Assembly: GCA_976551045.1 (NCBI GenBank)
Contig: CDPCPM010000050.1
Location: 10,230,001-10,294,000 of the forward strand
Reading direction: 5' to 3'
Length of the DNA: 64,000 nt
Origin: Glaucostegus cemiculus
Lineage: Eukaryota
Below the pieces are notes generated by a model, which saw only the letters and a list, made by a program, of their open reading frames with translations, made no database searches and was not told where the DNA came from. Below, piece by piece: positions 1 to 52,150 of the stretch (position 1 is its first letter; each line of letters starts with the position of its first letter). A program made the position numbers and the translations under genes.

Positions 1-2427
1 TCTGTTGCCGGTCTAGTCAGTTCTGGGCTACATGGTCACCAATAGTGGGATTGTGGTACAGAAGAAGTTGTGGATGTATGAAAGAATCCAAAATTTGTGG
101 AATCGAGAGGTTTGTAGATGATGGATTGGAAGAGGTTACAGAAGAGGTTACTGGAAGAGGAGCAAACCTCACAGAGGGATTAGGACTCAATGTGAATTTT
201 AAATTATATCACTTGGACATATGAGTAGGCTGTCAGGCATTCTTTTGAACAGGTCTATTTTTGTTCTGGTTGGGAAAAGAAGTTCAACAAAAAATTGTAC
301 AGCAAAACATGGGCTTGGCTCAAAAGGTTTGAACACTATTAGAGGTGGCACAATGAAAGAAATGCAAGGAGAATTTAACCTTAAACCTACCCATAAGGAA
401 ATTTATTCTGAGTGCTGCATAAGTCACTTTCCAAATACCTTTGGAAGATTTTCACTATTTGTGTTGATGGCTGGCGATTATAAGTATGGGAGTGTGTTTG
501 TCTTTTAGATATTAATGATTTCAGAAGTTCAGTCACTTACTCGTTTGTCAGTAATATAATGAACAAGAAGGTGCAAGTTATTTTAACTGCTGCTTTTTAT
601 CTCAGAGTTCAACCAATATTGATAGAAATGTACAATGCTATCAATAACTTGGCTGTAAGAACTTTCATTATGTTAAAAAAGAATATTCTATAAATACACT
701 TTAACAGTTATTGCTCAAATTTATTTTTAGAACCTATTTAGTCATATGAAATCAGGACTTTGTAGTTATATATGATGCCATTGTGTTAGGCTAAGTATCA
801 AGCATTAGCTTATCACAGTACAAAGGTATCGGCTATTTGTGAACCCTGGCTCTATCCTGAGAAATGATAAGTCAAAAATGAACTGAACCGAGCACCAACA
901 CCTCCTGTCCAGGCACATCCCACTTTTCAGGTGTTGCAATGTCGAATCATTAAGCAGCTCACCTCTCCTTGTTCGGTGGTGTTAATTGCCCACTAATTTC
1001 AACACTGTTTGTCAGCAGAAGCCAACAGCTGTCTTGCCGCATCATAAAATTTGAGCAAACTTTTACTTTATCAACTCTTCGATTATTATCTTTCCTTATC
1101 TTGCAAGCAGTTGCAATTGAGGGATGATATGAGTAGGGAAGGGCTGTTTAGCACTTTGGCAACACTAGTTATAGTGGGTTGCTGGCGCCAGCATGTCTCT
1201 TGGCTATCTGAGTGGCATGGGTTCAGGGCAGAAAAACACTTCACAGGCTGAGATCATACACAGGTAATTTCCACATGTAGTGATCTGTGAAGTATACCGT
1301 CTAATCTCCCATTCTGAAATTAGACATCTCCAGACATTTATTAAAGTCTGACTTGTTGACATCAGAGAACATACTAAAACAAGATTTTAATTGTTGATTT
1401 TCTGTGCATGTTGGTTAAGCTTTTCTTCATTAGGTTGAGTTCTCGTCCAACTTCAGACCTACACTGACAGATGCAATAAACTTTTATTGGTGTTTTTAGA
1501 CTTTGTTTGGAAACTAAATGATGGGGGATTCAAATAAGTTACAACATGTCACTTGGAGCTCTGCACTGTAACAATTGGCACACCAGCAGAAGATCTACAA
1601 CCTGCAGGTGGCATTCGAAACCTGTCAGCCAGCGTGGCTAATTTCTGCTTGCCGATTAAGGGAGATGTACCATAACTTTCTGAAAGAGTTTTTTACAGCA
1701 TAAAAGGAGGCTCTTTGACTTACTGTGTCGGTGCAATTGCTTGGATCCTTTCCCCTGCCTGTTCCTCATACCCTGTTTTAATCTCCATTTTTGAACCCAT
1801 CTGCTTCCTTTTTAAAAGTGATTACAATTGTTGTTTCCATCAGAGCTTTTGATAAGACTATTCTGTGTTAAAAGCCCCTTCCCATCCCGAAAGTGTTGCC
1901 TCTCCTCCACAGCGGAGATGCAGAGGTAACTGATAAATCTGTACTGTGTCAACAAAATGGTCATTTGAGGCTGGACAGAGATGTATCACATCTTTGCTAC
2001 TAGCCTGATTTCACGCATTCCCTTTCAATCTGGAGTCATTGGATATGAAGGAGCAATGAGAATTCTGGTTGATTTTCACTGATCTTGTTCCTCACTCATA
2101 CTGCCATTTAACATGAGCTCAGTCAAATGGGGATGAGAAACAGCCTTTCTAATGATTTCAAGTGACACTGGGTGATGCAGATCTCCCATGAGTGATTTAG
2201 TGAATGGAAGAGCATTATGGGAGGAAGTAAAGAACTCCCCATGGTGACATTAAGGCAGGAAGAAAGAAATCAAAGATCTCCATAGTCAAATTGCCTTGAC
2301 AAAACTATAATTTCCCCACTGCCAATTTGAAAATGATTGCACTTTAGTGTAAGAAAGCTTAAGAAAATGTACAGTAAAACATATATAGTTCATTGCCTTT
2401 TTTGATATTGACTGCCTGCATCTTCAG

Positions 2428-2454
2428 GTATTATGATAATTGGTTTAATTTGAG
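2428..2454 (+). CDS. Candidate 27-nt micro-exon of an unidentified host gene (xYYDNWFNLx)
   Basis: Acceptor gcatcttcag| and donor GAG|gtaaga; open frame G TAT TAT GAT AAT TGG TTT AAT TTG AG; phase-compatible with the 4525 candidate. Confidence 0.3.
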
Positions 2455-3769
2455 GTAAGACAATATACTGGAGGGAGTTGAAGTAGCAGCATCTCACATG
2501 CAGTTTCACAATACAGTCCAACAGGACTTGTGCTGTAAGTTGGAACACTTGCGTTTATTCCAACTTGTGACCTCTGAGCCCCTCTGAAGTCTGATCATTG
2601 CTGCATTGAACTACACTTATGGTTGAAGCGTATCCATTCCTTAAAACTGTAGCATTGATGTCTATTGACAAGGATAGAATTTTATCATGGTATCTTACTC
2701 AGATTGTGTGACCATCAATAAGTGTGCTTCTGTTGAATTCATTTCACCCCTATCTCGTTGTCTTTTTCACATCCATAATTGAATGATTACACATTTATAC
2801 AAGGTCAAAGATGGGAAAAGAGCTGTCATTGCTGTTGTCTAAACTGTGAAACAATTTTTGGGGGTGACAGCCTCAAACTCACCTGAGGGATTAACCCACT
2901 GGCACCATTACAGGATTGCCCACTTTAACCTTTAGACAGTCAATAGTTTTGGCTAAAGTTCCTGTCTGACACAGACAAGGGCCTTATTATGTAGGAAAAA
3001 GAGAGGGTGAAAGACATAGTTATGATGCATTTTTGCTGTAATTAAATCATGAACATCCTTAATCCATCCACAAAACATGAGTGATAAAAGTTGTTTGCAT
3101 TGGCATTTTCAGAAATGTTTAAAAGTTTCCTCAGCCATCATTAAAAAACTGAGAGCAACAGTTTGCTTGTGTTCCTCTGAGTGTTTGCTGCTTATACTAA
3201 ATTATAATGCTTGCAGTGCCTGGCAGATATTCAGTACTTGGAAAATGCTTCTGGCATTCTATTCTTCATGTGGGTCTTTCTGGCAACTCATGTACAGTGA
3301 CGACTTCCAGTACTCAACCACCCAGTGATGCTGCCAGACTGCTTGTGTGACGGATAAGCCATAATTTATTCCAGTCAACTACTGGGAAGACAGAAGCTAT
3401 TGCTTTCAATCTCTGCCACAAACTCTGCATCGAAGCCACTGACTTACCAAACACCCACCCCATCCCAAGACTGAGGTCAAAATAAACTTTATGTTCTATT
3501 TAACTTCAAGCTGAGCTTCCAGCTCCAAATCCTCTCCACCTGAGGGACCAAATATTTTTCCTACATATAATATCATCTGGCTGGTCCATTCTTTAAGCCA
3601 TAGAACCATAGAACAATACAGTACTCTATCAGTGCTCTCAAGACATTTTCCTGTCTTTCATTCTCTGTAGACAGTATGTAAAAGTTCTGCTGCATTTATC
3701 CATTTCCTCATCAAGCTGTCACTAACCCCACCCCACCCTTTCTTTTCCTTCCCTGCCACACTCCTTTGT

Positions 3770-4182
3770 CTTCCTTTATTCCTATGGCTCCCTTCCCCCA
3801 CCTTGATGACCTGCCCATCTCCTCTCCTCCCCTCCTCCATCCTTTATTCCATGGTCCTCTGCCCTCTCCTAACGGATTCCTCCTTCTTCAGCCCTTTACC
3901 TCTTCTACTTATCACCTCTCAGCTTATTACATCTCCCCCTCCCCAACCCACCTACCAACCCCTCTCACCTGGACTTGCCTGTCACCTGAACTCGCCTGTC
4001 ACCTAAACTCACCTCGCCCCTGCCTGCGTGTGCTGCTCCCCCTCCTCCCAACCTTCTTATTCTGGCTTCTGCCCTCTTCCTTTCCAGTCCTGATGAAGGG
4101 TCTCGGCCTGAAACGTCGACTGTTTATTTCCATCCATGGATGATGCCTGACCTGCTGAGTTCCTCCAGCACTTTTTGTGTAC
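3770..4182 (+). mobile_element. Non-autonomous Penelope-like element (pyrimidine-rich body plus hammerhead-bearing terminus)
   Basis: Body followed by cctgatgaagggtctcggcctgaaacgtcgactg...gctgagttcctccagcactttttgtgt, a recurrent chondrichthyan repeat end; homologous copies at 40.4 kb and 51.8 kb. Confidence 0.75.
4085..4122 (+). ncRNA. Minimal type I hammerhead ribozyme motif
   Basis: CAGTC (stem I) CTGATGA AGG-gtctcgg-CCT (stem II) GAAAC GTC^ GACTG (stem I'); stem III reduced to the ACGT palindrome. Confidence 0.75.
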
Positions 4183-4524
4183 TAACCCATTTACCCCACG
4201 CTCATTAATATTCGTTAGTCCCTGAAGCCTCAAATATGAAATTCTCATTCAGGTATTTTTTATAGATCCGTGCCAGTCCTTTACACTGTATCCTCCACTC
4301 ATCACTGCTGGTCAGTGTTTGGGCTAAAGCACACAGGTTGAGCAACATAAGGAATATCTTTATATCTGATGTGGCAGTGTCTGGCTATGACTAGAAACTG
4401 AGGAAAATATTTTATTTCCTGGCATTGACTGCAAAATGAATCAAAACATGTGAAGGAAACTTCTGTTTGGAAATACGGCATAGTCCAATTTTCCCCAATC
4501 CTCTTCCTCGTTGTCTCTCCGCAG

Positions 4525-4564
4525 GTTGAGTATGAAAATGCGACGCCTTAAATCAGTTGTTAGA
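4525..4564 (+). CDS. Candidate 40-nt exon (xLSMKMRRLKSVVR)
   Basis: Strong polypyrimidine acceptor ctcttcctcgttgtctctccgcag|, donor AGA|gtgagt, open frame. Confidence 0.45.
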
Positions 4565-4639
4565 GTGAGTCCTTCACTGGAAGCAGTGATTAATTTTGTT
4601 TAACTTTACTTCTTGCTGTGCAGTCTGGGTTGGTAGGTC

Positions 4640-4950
4640 AAGAGTTCTACCTTTGGATCACTCAGAGCAGCCGGTAGGGCCACTGACTTCGGGTGCTGTC
4701 TGTGTGGAGTTTGCACGTTCTCCCTGTGGCCGTGTGTGTTTCTTCTGTCTGCTCTGGTTTCCTCCCACATCTCAAAGGGATGCAATTTGGTATGTTAATT
4801 GACTGCTGTATATTGACCCTGGTGTGTAAGTGAGGGTCTGTGGGGATTTGAATGTAAAACAAATGGGATTAGTGTAGGATTAGAATAAATGGGTGCTTGA
4901 AGGTTGGTGAAGACTCGGTGCACTGAAGGGCCTGTTGCCATGCTGTACAA
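4640..4950 (+). mobile_element. V-SINE (HE1-like) with CR1-type tail
   Basis: gtggagtttgcacgttctcc...ggtttcctcccacatc V-domain; tail gaagggcctgttgccatgctgta. Confidence 0.85.
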
Positions 4951-30184: not shown

Positions 30185-30515
30185 GGACACAGAAGAAGGC
30201 CATCTGGTCCATGCTAGCTCCCAGCAGAGCATTCCCAAACACCTCTGCCTTTCTTATTTTCTCCGATCCTTGCATTGCTGCAACTTATTCTCTCTCACCT
30301 GCCCATCAGCAGCTATTTGGTTCTATTGCCTACACTAAGGGGTAATTTACAGTGGCCATTTAACCAATGAGCACATCATTGGAATGTGGGAGGAAACCAG
30401 GGACCTAGGGAGAAACCCACACAGTCACAGGGAAAACATGCAAACTCCATACAAACACCATCTGAGGTTAGGGTCGAATCGGGGTTACTGGAGCTGTGAG
30501 GCCATAGCACAACCT
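30185..30515 (-). mobile_element. V-SINE
   Basis: ttggaatgtgggaggaaacc...gaaaacatgcaaactccatac. Confidence 0.8.
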
Positions 30516-33139: not shown

Positions 33140-33442
33140 TTACATATAAAGGTTGTCATGGTCTTGAGAGGGTGGATGTAGAGTGGGTCCTTCCTCTTGT
33201 GGGAGAATCTAGAACTGGAGTAACTGTTTAAAAATATCAAAGAAAGAGTTGAGGAAACGTTTTAATCTTTCAAACAGTCATGAGTCTTTGGAACTCTCCA
33301 AAGGGCAATGGAAGTAGAGCCAGTGAATATTTTTAAAGCAGAGGTAGATAGATTCTTGATAAGCATGCAGGTTAAAAGTTTTTGGGGGCTGGACGGGAAT
33401 GTGGAGTTGTGGTTACAATCAGATCAGCCAAGATCTTATCAA
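33140..33442 (+). mobile_element. CR1 LINE 3' end (continues through the minisatellite)
   Basis: gggtggatgtagag..gggagaatctagaact...tttaaagcagaggtagatagattcttgat...agatcagcca. Confidence 0.8.
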
Positions 33443-33816
33443 GTGGTAGGGCAGACTTAATGGTAGTGCAGTCCCAGTGGTAGGGCAGACCCAATGGTAG
33501 TGCAGTCCCAGTGGTAGGGCAGACCCAATGGTAGTGCAGTCCCAGTGGTAGGGCAGACCCAATGGTAGTGCAGTCCCAGTGATAGGGCAGACCCAATGGT
33601 AGTGCAGTCCCAGTGGTAGGGCAGACCCAATGGTAGTGCAGTCCCAGTGGTAGGGCAGACCCAATGGTAGTGCAGTCCCAGTGGTAGGGCAGACCCAATG
33701 GTAGTGCAGTCCCACTAGTAGGATAGACTCAATGGTAGGGCAAACTCAATAGTAGGGCAGTCCCAGTGGTAGGGCAGTCCCAATGGTAGGGCAGACTCAA
33801 TGGTAGGGCAGGCCCA
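33443..33816 (+). repeat. Minisatellite: 8 x 34 bp (dimer of 17-mers) plus 6 diverged 17-mers
   Basis: Unit gtggtagggcagaccca+atggtagtgcagtccca. Confidence 0.97.
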
Positions 33817-33911
33817 CTGGACCAAGTGGATCTTTTCTAATTTGTGTGTAAATGATGAATACTCGAGCTGCTTTCTCACTTTCTTGCTGCTGCGTGTGCT
33901 TTTGAGCCCAG

Positions 33912-39584: not shown

Positions 39585-39855
39585 AAATACAGGAGGCTAC
39601 AGATGCTGCAGTCTGGAGCACCAAACAATCTGCTAGAGGAACTCAGCAGGTCAAGCAGCATCTGAGGGAGGAAAGGAGTTGTCGATGTTTTGGTTTGAAA
39701 TCCTGCATTAAGACCTGTTTCGGGTCAAAATGGGTCCTGATGAAGGGCCCTGATGCAAGATTTCAACCCGAAACGTCGACAATTCCTTTCCTCCCACAGA
39801 TGCTGCTCGATTCGCTGAGTTCCTCCAGCAGATGGTTTGTTGCTCCAGATTTGTG
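39585..39855. mobile_element. Inverted pair of Penelope-like termini with a hammerhead core
   Basis: gaggaactcagcaggtcaagcagcatctg ... cagatgctgctcgattcgctgagttcctcc; GTC CTGATGA...GAAACGTC GAC at 39734-39780. Confidence 0.75.
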
Positions 39856-40407
39856 TATTTGTTGCCCACTAGGAAAAAAACCTGAACAGTAAGACAGTGA
39901 GAGTAAAGGGCAACTCCCTGTATTACATCCAGAGATTTTGGTATTGCTTTAATGTTGTTTGTAATGTGGCAACATTATTTATTTTCTTGACTTTAGAAGA
40001 AAAATTATACCTCTATGATTTCTTGCAACCATTGAAAAACAGCCATTTCTCTCAAAAGGTTTGTAAAACAAAACCTCTATTTCCAACTGTGTTGGTGCCA
40101 ACAGGTACCTCATGTCTATCATTATCCCGACTAACTGATGCCTCATTGACTGCTCCCACTATTGCCTGCTAACATGACAATCTCCAATCACAGCAAAAGC
40201 ATTGGCATCTGCCAGTATTCACTTACCACGTGAATAACTGGCACAGTTGAAAACTTATTTGAAAGCACATTTTGCAGAGATTGGGAGAATTGTGCAATTG
40301 CAGATCTCACATATGGACAAAATTACAGCACGTGAGCTGTGTATCTGTTAGATACATCACAATACGTAGACCATTTACACAAAATTAGACTTTCTTGATG
40401 TGTTTTT

Positions 40408-40745
40408 AAGACACAAGGGACTGCAGATGTTGGTACTGGAGCCACAAACAAATCTCCTGGAGGAACACCATGGGTTGAGCAGCATCTGTGGTGGGGGGGT
40501 GGGGAAGGAAGGAATTGTTAATGTTTCGGATTGAAACCTTGCATCAGGACTGACTGTGGAGAGGGAAAATGGGCAGTATGAAGAGGAGAGTGGGAGTGGT
40601 GAAATGGTCAGTAAGTGAGTGGTTGACCAAGGATGGGTGAAGGATGATGGCCAGATGGAGCCAGGTAGGAGAGGGGGAGGGGTGGAGTTGGGAGGTAGAG
40701 ATAGGTGGATGAATGGTGGAGGCAGGCAAAAAGAAGAGGGAATGA
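40408..40745 (-). mobile_element. Non-autonomous Penelope-like element
   Basis: Reverse complement of the 3.8/51.8 kb family; variant core cagtcCTGATGC...GAAAC. Confidence 0.7.
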
Positions 40746-51756: not shown

Positions 51757-52150
51757 TTGGTCTACCCATCACCCACACACTCCTCCCATCGGGATCCCTC
51801 CCTCTTCTATTCCCACCTGCTCACCCACCTCCCTAATTTGATTCAATGCTCCACCTCTCCAATCAGATTCCATCATCTTCAGCCCTTTTTTGCCTCCACC
51901 TATCACCTCCCAGCCTCTGTCGCAATTTTTACTCTCTCTCCTCCACCTACCTGCCATCCCTTCTCATCTGGGTCCACCTATTATTTGCCAGCTCTTGCCG
52001 CAACCCTTCCCTTCACCTTTTTATACTGGCTATCTCCCCTCTATCTTTCAGTCCAGATGAAGGGTCTCGATCCGAGATGTCAACTGTCCATTTCCCTCCA
52101 CAGCTGCTATCTGACCCATTGAGTTCCTCCAGCATCTCATTTGTTGCTAA
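51757..52150 (+). mobile_element. Non-autonomous Penelope-like element with mutated hammerhead core
   Basis: cagtcCAGATGAagggtctcgatccGAGATgtcaactg; body homologous to 3770-4182. Confidence 0.7.

What the first reader, a model, noticed from the sequence alone, without database searches (positions are those of the whole stretch)
4085..4122. Intact-looking minimal hammerhead ribozyme at the end of a Penelope-derived element
Seen: perfect stem I (CAGUC/GACUG), CUGAUGA core, a 3-bp stem II (AGG/CCU), GAAA and a GUC cleavage triplet, with stem III collapsed to the loopless palindrome ACGU. Established: Penelope-like elements carry minimal type I hammerheads with palindromic stem III that are thought to cleave as dimers. 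Inference: this copy may still be cleavage-competent. It lies in the sense orientation between two candidate exons (2428 and 4525), so it could cut a host pre-mRNA if it pairs with another copy.
Basis: partly seen in the sequence, partly recalled or inferred. Interest (0 to 1): 0.7.

Follow-up and report, generated by a model that had tools for sequence, protein, structure and literature searches.

The report
Relic Penelope hammerhead, best-kept local copy
This is a real copy of the tiny self-cutting RNA motif that Penelope-type jumping genes are known to carry, left at the end of a truncated insertion in what is likely a ray genome; it is better preserved than its neighbours, but it has one damaged base pair and no partner copy beside it, so it probably cuts nothing.

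Summary
The motif is at 4085-4122 as described, but stem II was read in the wrong register. Folding and family comparison give a bulged A plus a 4-bp stem whose conserved G10.1-C11.1 closing pair has decayed to G·U at 4109, so the copy is core-intact but not fully intact. It ends a 452-bp 5'-truncated Penelope-like insertion (3729-4180, 8-bp target duplication). Longer copies encode RT plus GIY-YIG with a Neptune-type linker. The family is huge: 2,079 copies match a 34-base subfamily pattern, 71 (this one included) have this exact 38-mer, and 117 are better. In the subfamily the catalytic G12 is lost as often as C11.1 (595 against 612), as neutral CpG decay predicts. There is no tandem partner, and no host gene was identified. 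The 2428 'exon' donor reads GG in three related organisms. Published metazoan minimal hammerheads are inactive as monomers and weak as dimers. Verdict: a new member of a known kind, probably inert. The scan has already reported this family at least eight times elsewhere in this genome.

The parts
3721..3728 (+). Left copy of an 8-bp target-site duplication (ACTAACCC); partly overlaps family sequence, so the boundary is uncertain by a few bases
3729..4180 (+). 5'-truncated Penelope-like (Neptune-type) element: non-coding 3' end / pseudo-LTR only, without the optional ~40-nt tail seen in many other copies
   Evidence: 82% to L061 7122-7544, directly behind that copy's GIY-YIG frame; all 29 other loci align up to 4179-4189; tail seen in other copies
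4085..4089 (+). Hammerhead stem I, 5' arm
4090..4096 (+). Core C3-A9 (CUGAUGA), unchanged
4097..4097 (+). Unpaired A between A9 and G10.1, typical of PLE minimal hammerheads
   Evidence: A in 47 of 50 copies; PMC4209133 discussion
4098..4109 (+). Stem II GGGU/GCCU with a CUCG loop; the closing pair is G10.1·U11.1 (CpG decay at 4109)
4110..4117 (+). G12-A14, palindromic ACGU (loopless stem III, which can pair only with a second copy) and the predicted cleavage nucleotide C17 at 4117
4118..4122 (+). Hammerhead stem I, 3' arm
4181..4188 (+). Right copy of the 8-bp target-site duplication

Best explanation
The 38 bases are a minimal type I hammerhead motif at the 3' end of a 5'-truncated Penelope-like retrotransposon insertion, with a complete catalytic core but a G·U pair in place of the conserved G10.1-C11.1 pair, and this copy is likely an inert relic that is decaying neutrally. 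In the source element the motif most likely works as a double hammerhead: two copies on one tandem transcript pair through ACGU, each core cuts the other copy after C17, and the element's own protein probably helps (inferred from published PLE work). This copy was likely inserted by target-primed reverse transcription (8-bp duplication shown; mechanism inferred). It lost the ORF and any tandem partner, and later took a CpG hit at 4109. As a monomer it cannot form stem III and is predicted to bury its core against the cleavage site. Its good state is within what chance leaves among thousands of copies.
For: PLE origin: longer copies carry RT and GIY-YIG frames directly upstream. 266 homologues at E<=1e-20 among 7,993 scored; many of the 120 listed carry PF00078/PF26215 and some PF01541, and the closest named ones come from rays and sharks. 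A CX4CxxC linker and CxxC inside GIY-YIG are present (clade definition in PMC8557442 passages). Abundance: 2,079 copies match a 34-base pattern; 117 have C11.1 and 71 equal this copy exactly; 93 pieces in 524 kb, 46 plus and 47 minus. Neutral decay: G12 to A in 595 and C11.1 to U in 612 of 2,079 (binomial p 0.65); all four CpGs are similarly decayed in 30 loci (kept in 12, 12, 8 and 14); U11.1 copies do not cluster as a lineage (p 0.68, 9 against 22 sequences). Chance of being this well kept is about 0.02-0.06 per subfamily copy. Stem II is -2.5 against -5.1 kcal/mol for a natural C11.1 copy. Literature: monomer inactive, dimer low (PMC4209133); anole PLE ribozyme needs the PLE protein and shows no RNA-seq ends at the site (PMC11167929); 1 of 9 Xenopus dimers cleaved (bioRxiv 10.64898/2026.07.22.740005).
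Against: This is the best-kept copy of 50 in 524 kb: the only one with full core, ACGU and a 5-bp stem I. It has 0 non-CpG changes in 30 ribozyme positions against 17 of 241 and 2 of 57 on either side. The insertion looks older than the split from relatives that differ by about 7-9% (junction overlap only about 30 bases), so it has lasted a long time. G·U keeps G10.1 and still pairs, so some activity may remain; I found no measured rate for this change (two classic papers not held). In a double hammerhead the cut at 4117 is made by the partner's core, so this copy's own U11.1 would not block it. The 4525 acceptor ranks in the top 0.1% of AG sites. No RNA data were available.
Confidence: 0.85

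Rival explanations
1. By-product cleavage in trans: the copy is transcribed in sense and now and then pairs with one of the many intact family copies on other RNAs (or with the same copy on a sister transcript), perhaps helped by PLE protein, and is cut at a low level without selected function.
For: Core, ACGU and stem I are intact. At least 117 fully canonical partners exist in the genome. A mixed double hammerhead scores -17.3 kcal/mol against -14.7 for the homodimer. Protein-assisted cleavage is published for an anole PLE (PMC11167929).
Against: The double-hammerhead fold is predicted to be less stable than two monomers (-21.6) or a plain duplex (-29.9), though the model omits core tertiary contacts and says the same of canonical copies. 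Stem I forms with probability 0.02-0.44 depending on flank length. Among the 150 scored RT matches the longest open frame was 568 codons, against about 900 residues for the longest homologues, so active helper protein is not shown. Sense transcription is not shown.
Confidence: 0.1
2. Domesticated intronic ribozyme that regulates splicing or turnover of a plus-strand host pre-mRNA, like the amniote RECK intronic hammerhead.
For: Best-kept local copy; apparently old insertion; strong acceptor 400 bases downstream; precedent in PMC6155905 passages.
Against: It carries decay at a conserved pair and has no stem III of its own or tertiary loops. No partner lies nearby. The donor of the upstream 'exon' is GG in X2, X3 and X10. 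No Pfam family at cut-off in 300 of 468 window segments or 150 of 584 flank segments. An acceptor as strong as 4525 occurs about once per 15 kb.
Confidence: 0.03
3. Member of a separate short non-autonomous, retrozyme-like element that spreads through its own self-cleaving RNA circles.
For: Many copies are short and hold little more than the ribozyme end. Animal retrozymes derive from PLE pLTRs and were found in one chondrichthyan (bioRxiv 10.64898/2026.07.22.740005).
Against: 5' ends are scattered, from the ribozyme itself to beyond 1.5 kb into the RT frame, with a fixed 3' end, which is the pattern of 5' truncation. This copy is a monomer, not a tandem array.
Confidence: 0.02

Closest known systems
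Minimal hammerheads (min-HHR) in pLTRs of metazoan Penelope-like elements (Cervera and De la Pena 2014, PMC4209133)
   Same: Type I topology, 5-bp helix I, unpaired base before 10.1, loopless palindromic 15.2-16.2, position in the pLTR, mass dispersal as single truncated copies.
   Different: Helix II is 4 bp here (7-8 bp in the Schistosoma families described). This copy has G·U at 10.1-11.1. The parts read list fishes, coelacanth, Xenopus and reptiles and do not name cartilaginous fish; supplements not seen.
Neptune-clade EN+ Penelope-like elements (definitions in PMC8557442)
   Same: RT followed by C-terminal GIY-YIG with CxxC between the motifs, CX2-5CxxC linker, 5' truncation, inverted pLTR upstream (L116, L119), optional 30-40 bp tail.
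   Different: This copy holds no coding sequence. Clade placement rests on motifs, not on a tree.
Hammerhead of the anole Poseidon element PAc (PMC11167929)
   Same: Minimal PLE hammerhead in the pLTR region.
   Different: PAc is a tandem, expressed element of another clade whose ribozyme cleaves only with its protein. This copy is a solitary relic.
Domesticated intronic type I hammerheads of amniotes (RECK, CTCL, DTNB; PMC6155905)
   Same: Type I hammerhead of likely retroelement origin.
   Different: Those are conserved across species in introns of known genes. Here no host gene or cross-species conservation of the motif is shown, and the family decays neutrally.

Membership tests
PLE minimal hammerhead (min-HHR) | Invariant core C3 U4 G5 A6 N7 G8 A9, G12 A13 A14 A15.1, U16.1, H17 | tested here: met
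PLE minimal hammerhead (min-HHR) | Helix I of 4-5 bp closing a type I topology | tested here: met
   5 of 5 pairs
PLE minimal hammerhead (min-HHR) | Unpaired nucleotide between 9 and 10.1 | tested here: met
   A4097; register probability 0.946
PLE minimal hammerhead (min-HHR) | Conserved G10.1-C11.1 pair | tested here: not met
   G·U in this copy. The subfamily's source state is C: 117 exact copies, and symmetric TG/CA decay 612/595. Read as post-insertion damage to a family member, not as another family.
PLE minimal hammerhead (min-HHR) | Palindromic 15.2-16.2 with no helix III loop | tested here: met
   ACGU 4113-4116
PLE minimal hammerhead (min-HHR) | Location in the pLTR of a PLE | tested here: met
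PLE minimal hammerhead (min-HHR) | Stem covariation across families in the genome | tested here: inconclusive
   Overall score not above shuffles (165 of 500). One pair, C2.1-G1.1, is U-A in 9 of 48 copies (Fisher p 0.027, uncorrected, one of two pairs tested); a second pair showed nothing. Copies are heavily decayed.
PLE minimal hammerhead (min-HHR) | Self-cleavage as a dimer | not testable with these tools
   needs an in vitro assay
Neptune-type EN+ Penelope-like element | Single ORF with RT then C-terminal GIY-YIG | tested here: met
   Natural 523-aa frame L118:3911-5479: RVT_1 E 0.0026, GIY-YIG E 0.051, both under Pfam cut-offs; full-length homologues with these domains at 40-45% identity over 98-99% of the frame. 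Shown for longer family copies, not for this copy.
Neptune-type EN+ Penelope-like element | CX2-5CxxC linker and CCHH motif | tested here: met
   CNCTKCYTC in the L061 frame, CxxC inside GIY-YIG and downstream His in the L056 frame; alignment A1
Neptune-type EN+ Penelope-like element | RT phylogeny groups with Neptune references | not tested
   no named reference set was held
Neptune-type EN+ Penelope-like element | 5' truncation, inverted pLTRs, optional tail | tested here: met
Domesticated intronic hammerhead (RECK type) | Lies in a sense intron of a host gene | tested here: inconclusive
   no host gene found; no RNA run listed
Domesticated intronic hammerhead (RECK type) | Motif conserved at the orthologous locus across species | not testable with these tools
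   related species' contigs break inside the repeat
Non-LTR retrozyme | Head-to-tail tandem units | tested here: not met
   single copy between target duplications; nearest same-strand ribozyme-covering copy is at 39734

The most novel reading that the evidence does not exclude
With possibly 10^5 Penelope hammerhead relics in this genome, the minority with intact cores and ACGU palindromes could form a trans-acting network of double hammerheads that cut unrelated pre-mRNAs, and this old, best-preserved copy could be kept as a cleavage substrate in a host intron.
Probability: 0.04. Interest if true: 0.7.

Novelty: new member of a known kind. Interest (0 to 1): 0.13.

Why it matters
As it most likely stands it matters little: one more copy of a motif described in 2014, in a family that this scan has met repeatedly. 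The useful general result is that the subfamily loses its catalytic G12 as freely as the neighbouring C, so 'intact-looking' copies in this genome are expected survivors and no sign of function. If trans-dimer cleavage of host RNAs were real, it would give abundant Penelope debris a regulatory role and make the in vivo function of minimal hammerheads testable.

Tried and rejected
Rfam: nothing at gathering score in the window and no hammerhead model at E<=10 locally; the motif lacks stem III, so this is not evidence against it. U11.1 as a source-element variant was not supported, on a small sample. Whole-structure covariation was not above shuffles; 2 of 50 copies were dropped for insertions before alignment. 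The near-zero divergence of other copies inside the ribozyme is an artefact of selecting them by exact match and was not used. The loci are biased toward U11.1 because the window was the query, and were not used for frequencies. Host-gene search: Pfam on 150 of 222 plus and 150 of 246 minus window segments gave 0 and 5 weak sub-cut-off hits; 150 of 584 flank segments gave none; a rough splice-site model with recalled frequencies gave no recognisable exon chain. Short exons can be missed by all of these. Sequencing runs: no RNA holder listed. Conservation of the 4525 candidate exon across relatives remains open. Lunse et al. 2016 and two classic mutagenesis papers were not held; three searches found no rate for G10.1·U11.1. 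Two searches listed no paper devoted to shark or ray PLE hammerheads; the 2026 preprint includes one chondrichthyan. No supplements were read; those of PMC4209133 and the preprint may list such families.

Full report
Observation. The core pattern has 1 match in the window against 0.02 expected. Rfam found nothing at gathering score and no hammerhead at E<=10 in 3600-4600. One correction matters. Stem II is predicted to form as a bulged A4097 followed by GGGU/GCCU around CUCG, with closing-pair probability 0.946 against 0.03 for AGG/CCU. Cervera and De la Pena list an unpaired base before 10.1 and a G10.1-C11.1 pair as marks of PLE minimal hammerheads (PMC4209133; I read parts 1-2 of 4). Here that pair is G·U.

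The element. A search of the own genome with 4050-4180 gave 2,520 candidates, 40 scored. All 29 other fetched loci align to the window up to 4179-4189, with scattered 5' ends. The window copy spans about 3729-4180 between two copies of ACTAACCC and lacks the roughly 40-nt tail that many copies carry. It is 82% identical to L061 7122-7544, which directly follows broken frames for RT and a GIY-YIG nuclease. A natural 523-aa frame in another copy has weak RVT_1 and GIY-YIG hits, both under Pfam cut-offs. It has 266 homologues at E<=1e-20 among 7,993 scored; many of the 120 listed carry RT and PF26215 domains, some GIY-YIG as well, and the closest named ones are from rays and sharks. The host group is inferred from that. 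A CX4CxxC linker and CxxC inside GIY-YIG fit Neptune as defined in PMC8557442 (passages); no tree was built. Inverted pLTRs flank L116 and L119.

How special is this copy? The genome holds 71 exact matches to this 38-mer, this copy included, and 117 with C11.1. A 34-base pattern free only at the four CpGs has 2,079 matches. In 524 kb around the window a profile found 93 pieces, 46 plus and 47 minus; if that region is typical the genome holds on the order of 10^5 (extrapolation from one region). Of the 50 pieces that cover the ribozyme, 5 keep the invariant core, 3 also keep ACGU, and only this one has a 5-bp stem I as well. So it is the best local copy. It has 0 non-CpG changes in 30 ribozyme positions, against 17 of 241 upstream and 2 of 57 downstream. 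With 3 of 4 CpGs kept, the joint chance is 0.02-0.06 per subfamily copy. That is unremarkable for a copy picked because it looked intact.

Selection test. C11.1 and G12 form one CpG. G12 is the catalytic general base (established knowledge, recalled), so if copies were kept active, G12-to-A should be rarer than C11.1-to-U. The counts are 595 and 612 of 2,079, with 872 others (p 0.65). In 30 loci the four CpGs were kept in 12, 12, 8 and 14. U11.1 copies are no closer to each other than to the rest (0.151 against 0.142, p 0.68; small sample), so the change looks recurrent and post-insertion. Whole-structure covariation in 48 decayed copies did not exceed shuffles (165 of 500), though C2.1-G1.1 is U-A in 9 (p 0.027 uncorrected). 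That is a hint of selection in source elements, not in copies. This tests the subfamily as a whole and cannot exclude selection on one locus.

Can it cut? As a monomer it has no stem III, and the core is predicted to pair with the cleavage site (probability 0.94, also true of a C11.1 copy). Stem II is weakened from -5.1 to -2.5 kcal/mol. The double hammerhead (-14.7) is less stable than two monomers (-21.6) or a plain duplex (-29.9); the model omits core contacts and ranks canonical copies the same way. In a double hammerhead the partner's core would cut C4117, so a partner is what counts. Core-complete same-strand copies lie 222 kb and 75 kb upstream (the latter without ACGU) and at 39734-39782. 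The last is an accidental chimera with an internal duplication and is predicted to fold into a long hairpin with its inverted neighbour. Published results set a low prior: no monomer activity and low dimer activity (PMC4209133); cleavage only with the element's protein and no RNA-seq ends at the site for an anole element (PMC11167929 passages); 1 of 9 Xenopus dimers active (preprint 10.64898/2026.07.22.740005, abstract and Results); very low rates even as dimers (review PMC6765202 passages). Lunse et al. 2016 was seen only as a title in that reference list. I found no measured effect of G10.1·U11.1; partial activity is possible.

Host gene. Contigs of related organisms lie on the unique flanks with about 7-9% differences (94 in 2200-3618; 48 in 4152-4717). 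At 2456 all three related runs read G, turning the GT donor of the 2428 candidate into GG (one contig each; 40 of 279 difference rows shown). Its acceptor is weak, with 2.5 equal or better per kb. The 4525 acceptor is strong (0.067 per kb), but its donor at 4565 is weak (rough, recalled weights). Pfam found no family at cut-off in 300 of 468 window segments or 150 of 584 flank segments. A host gene with short exons is not excluded, but neither the gene nor sense orientation is shown. About 42-44% of Xenopus retrozyme copies overlap introns, so an intronic position would itself be ordinary.

Verdict. It works like, and by all testable structural marks but one is, a PLE minimal hammerhead; the one failed mark is best read as CpG damage. 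It is most likely inert (0.85). Low-level trans cleavage is possible (0.10) and a domesticated role unlikely (0.03). Earlier scan notes on other pieces of this genome reached similar readings; they are unchecked AI notes and were not counted as evidence. None lay near this window.

Noticed in passing
window 39595-39866: Inverted pair of Penelope ends (121-nt arms, 81%). The plus copy has a short internal duplication that by accident yields a full core, G10.1-C11.1 and ACGU with a long loop II (39732-39782), but it is predicted to be locked in the fold-back hairpin.
   Followed up: partly
524-kb sample around the window (e.g. window 40445-40570 and 52010-52143): Shared changes in 'invariant' core positions mark whole subfamilies: A9 to C in 12 of 50 copies and U4 to A in 10 of 50. 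These are not CpG changes and suggest source elements that spread with altered cores.
   Followed up: no
window 4500-4570: Strong plus-strand splice acceptor at 4525 with several CpGs kept nearby and a possible 40-nt exon ending at a weak donor (4565); identity unknown.
   Followed up: partly
window and 230 kb on each side: No recognisable host coding exon in the segments scanned: a gene-poor region or a gene with very long introns.
   Followed up: partly
window 33374-33883: Tandem array with a 17-base spacing.
   Followed up: no
window 4683-4947 and copies at 30363, 47822, 56596: A different, very high-copy short repeat directly downstream; not classified.
   Followed up: no
G000:C172 (650998-2178564): 9 of the 100 listed exact C11.1 copies fall in about 1.5 Mb of one contig: a region with young or CpG-protected copies.
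   Followed up: no
one search hit list (P0002, P0003, P0112): Several ray proteins named as ordinary host genes match the PLE frame at 60-63% identity, which suggests PLE pieces inside annotated gene models, either exonised or mis-annotated.
   Followed up: no
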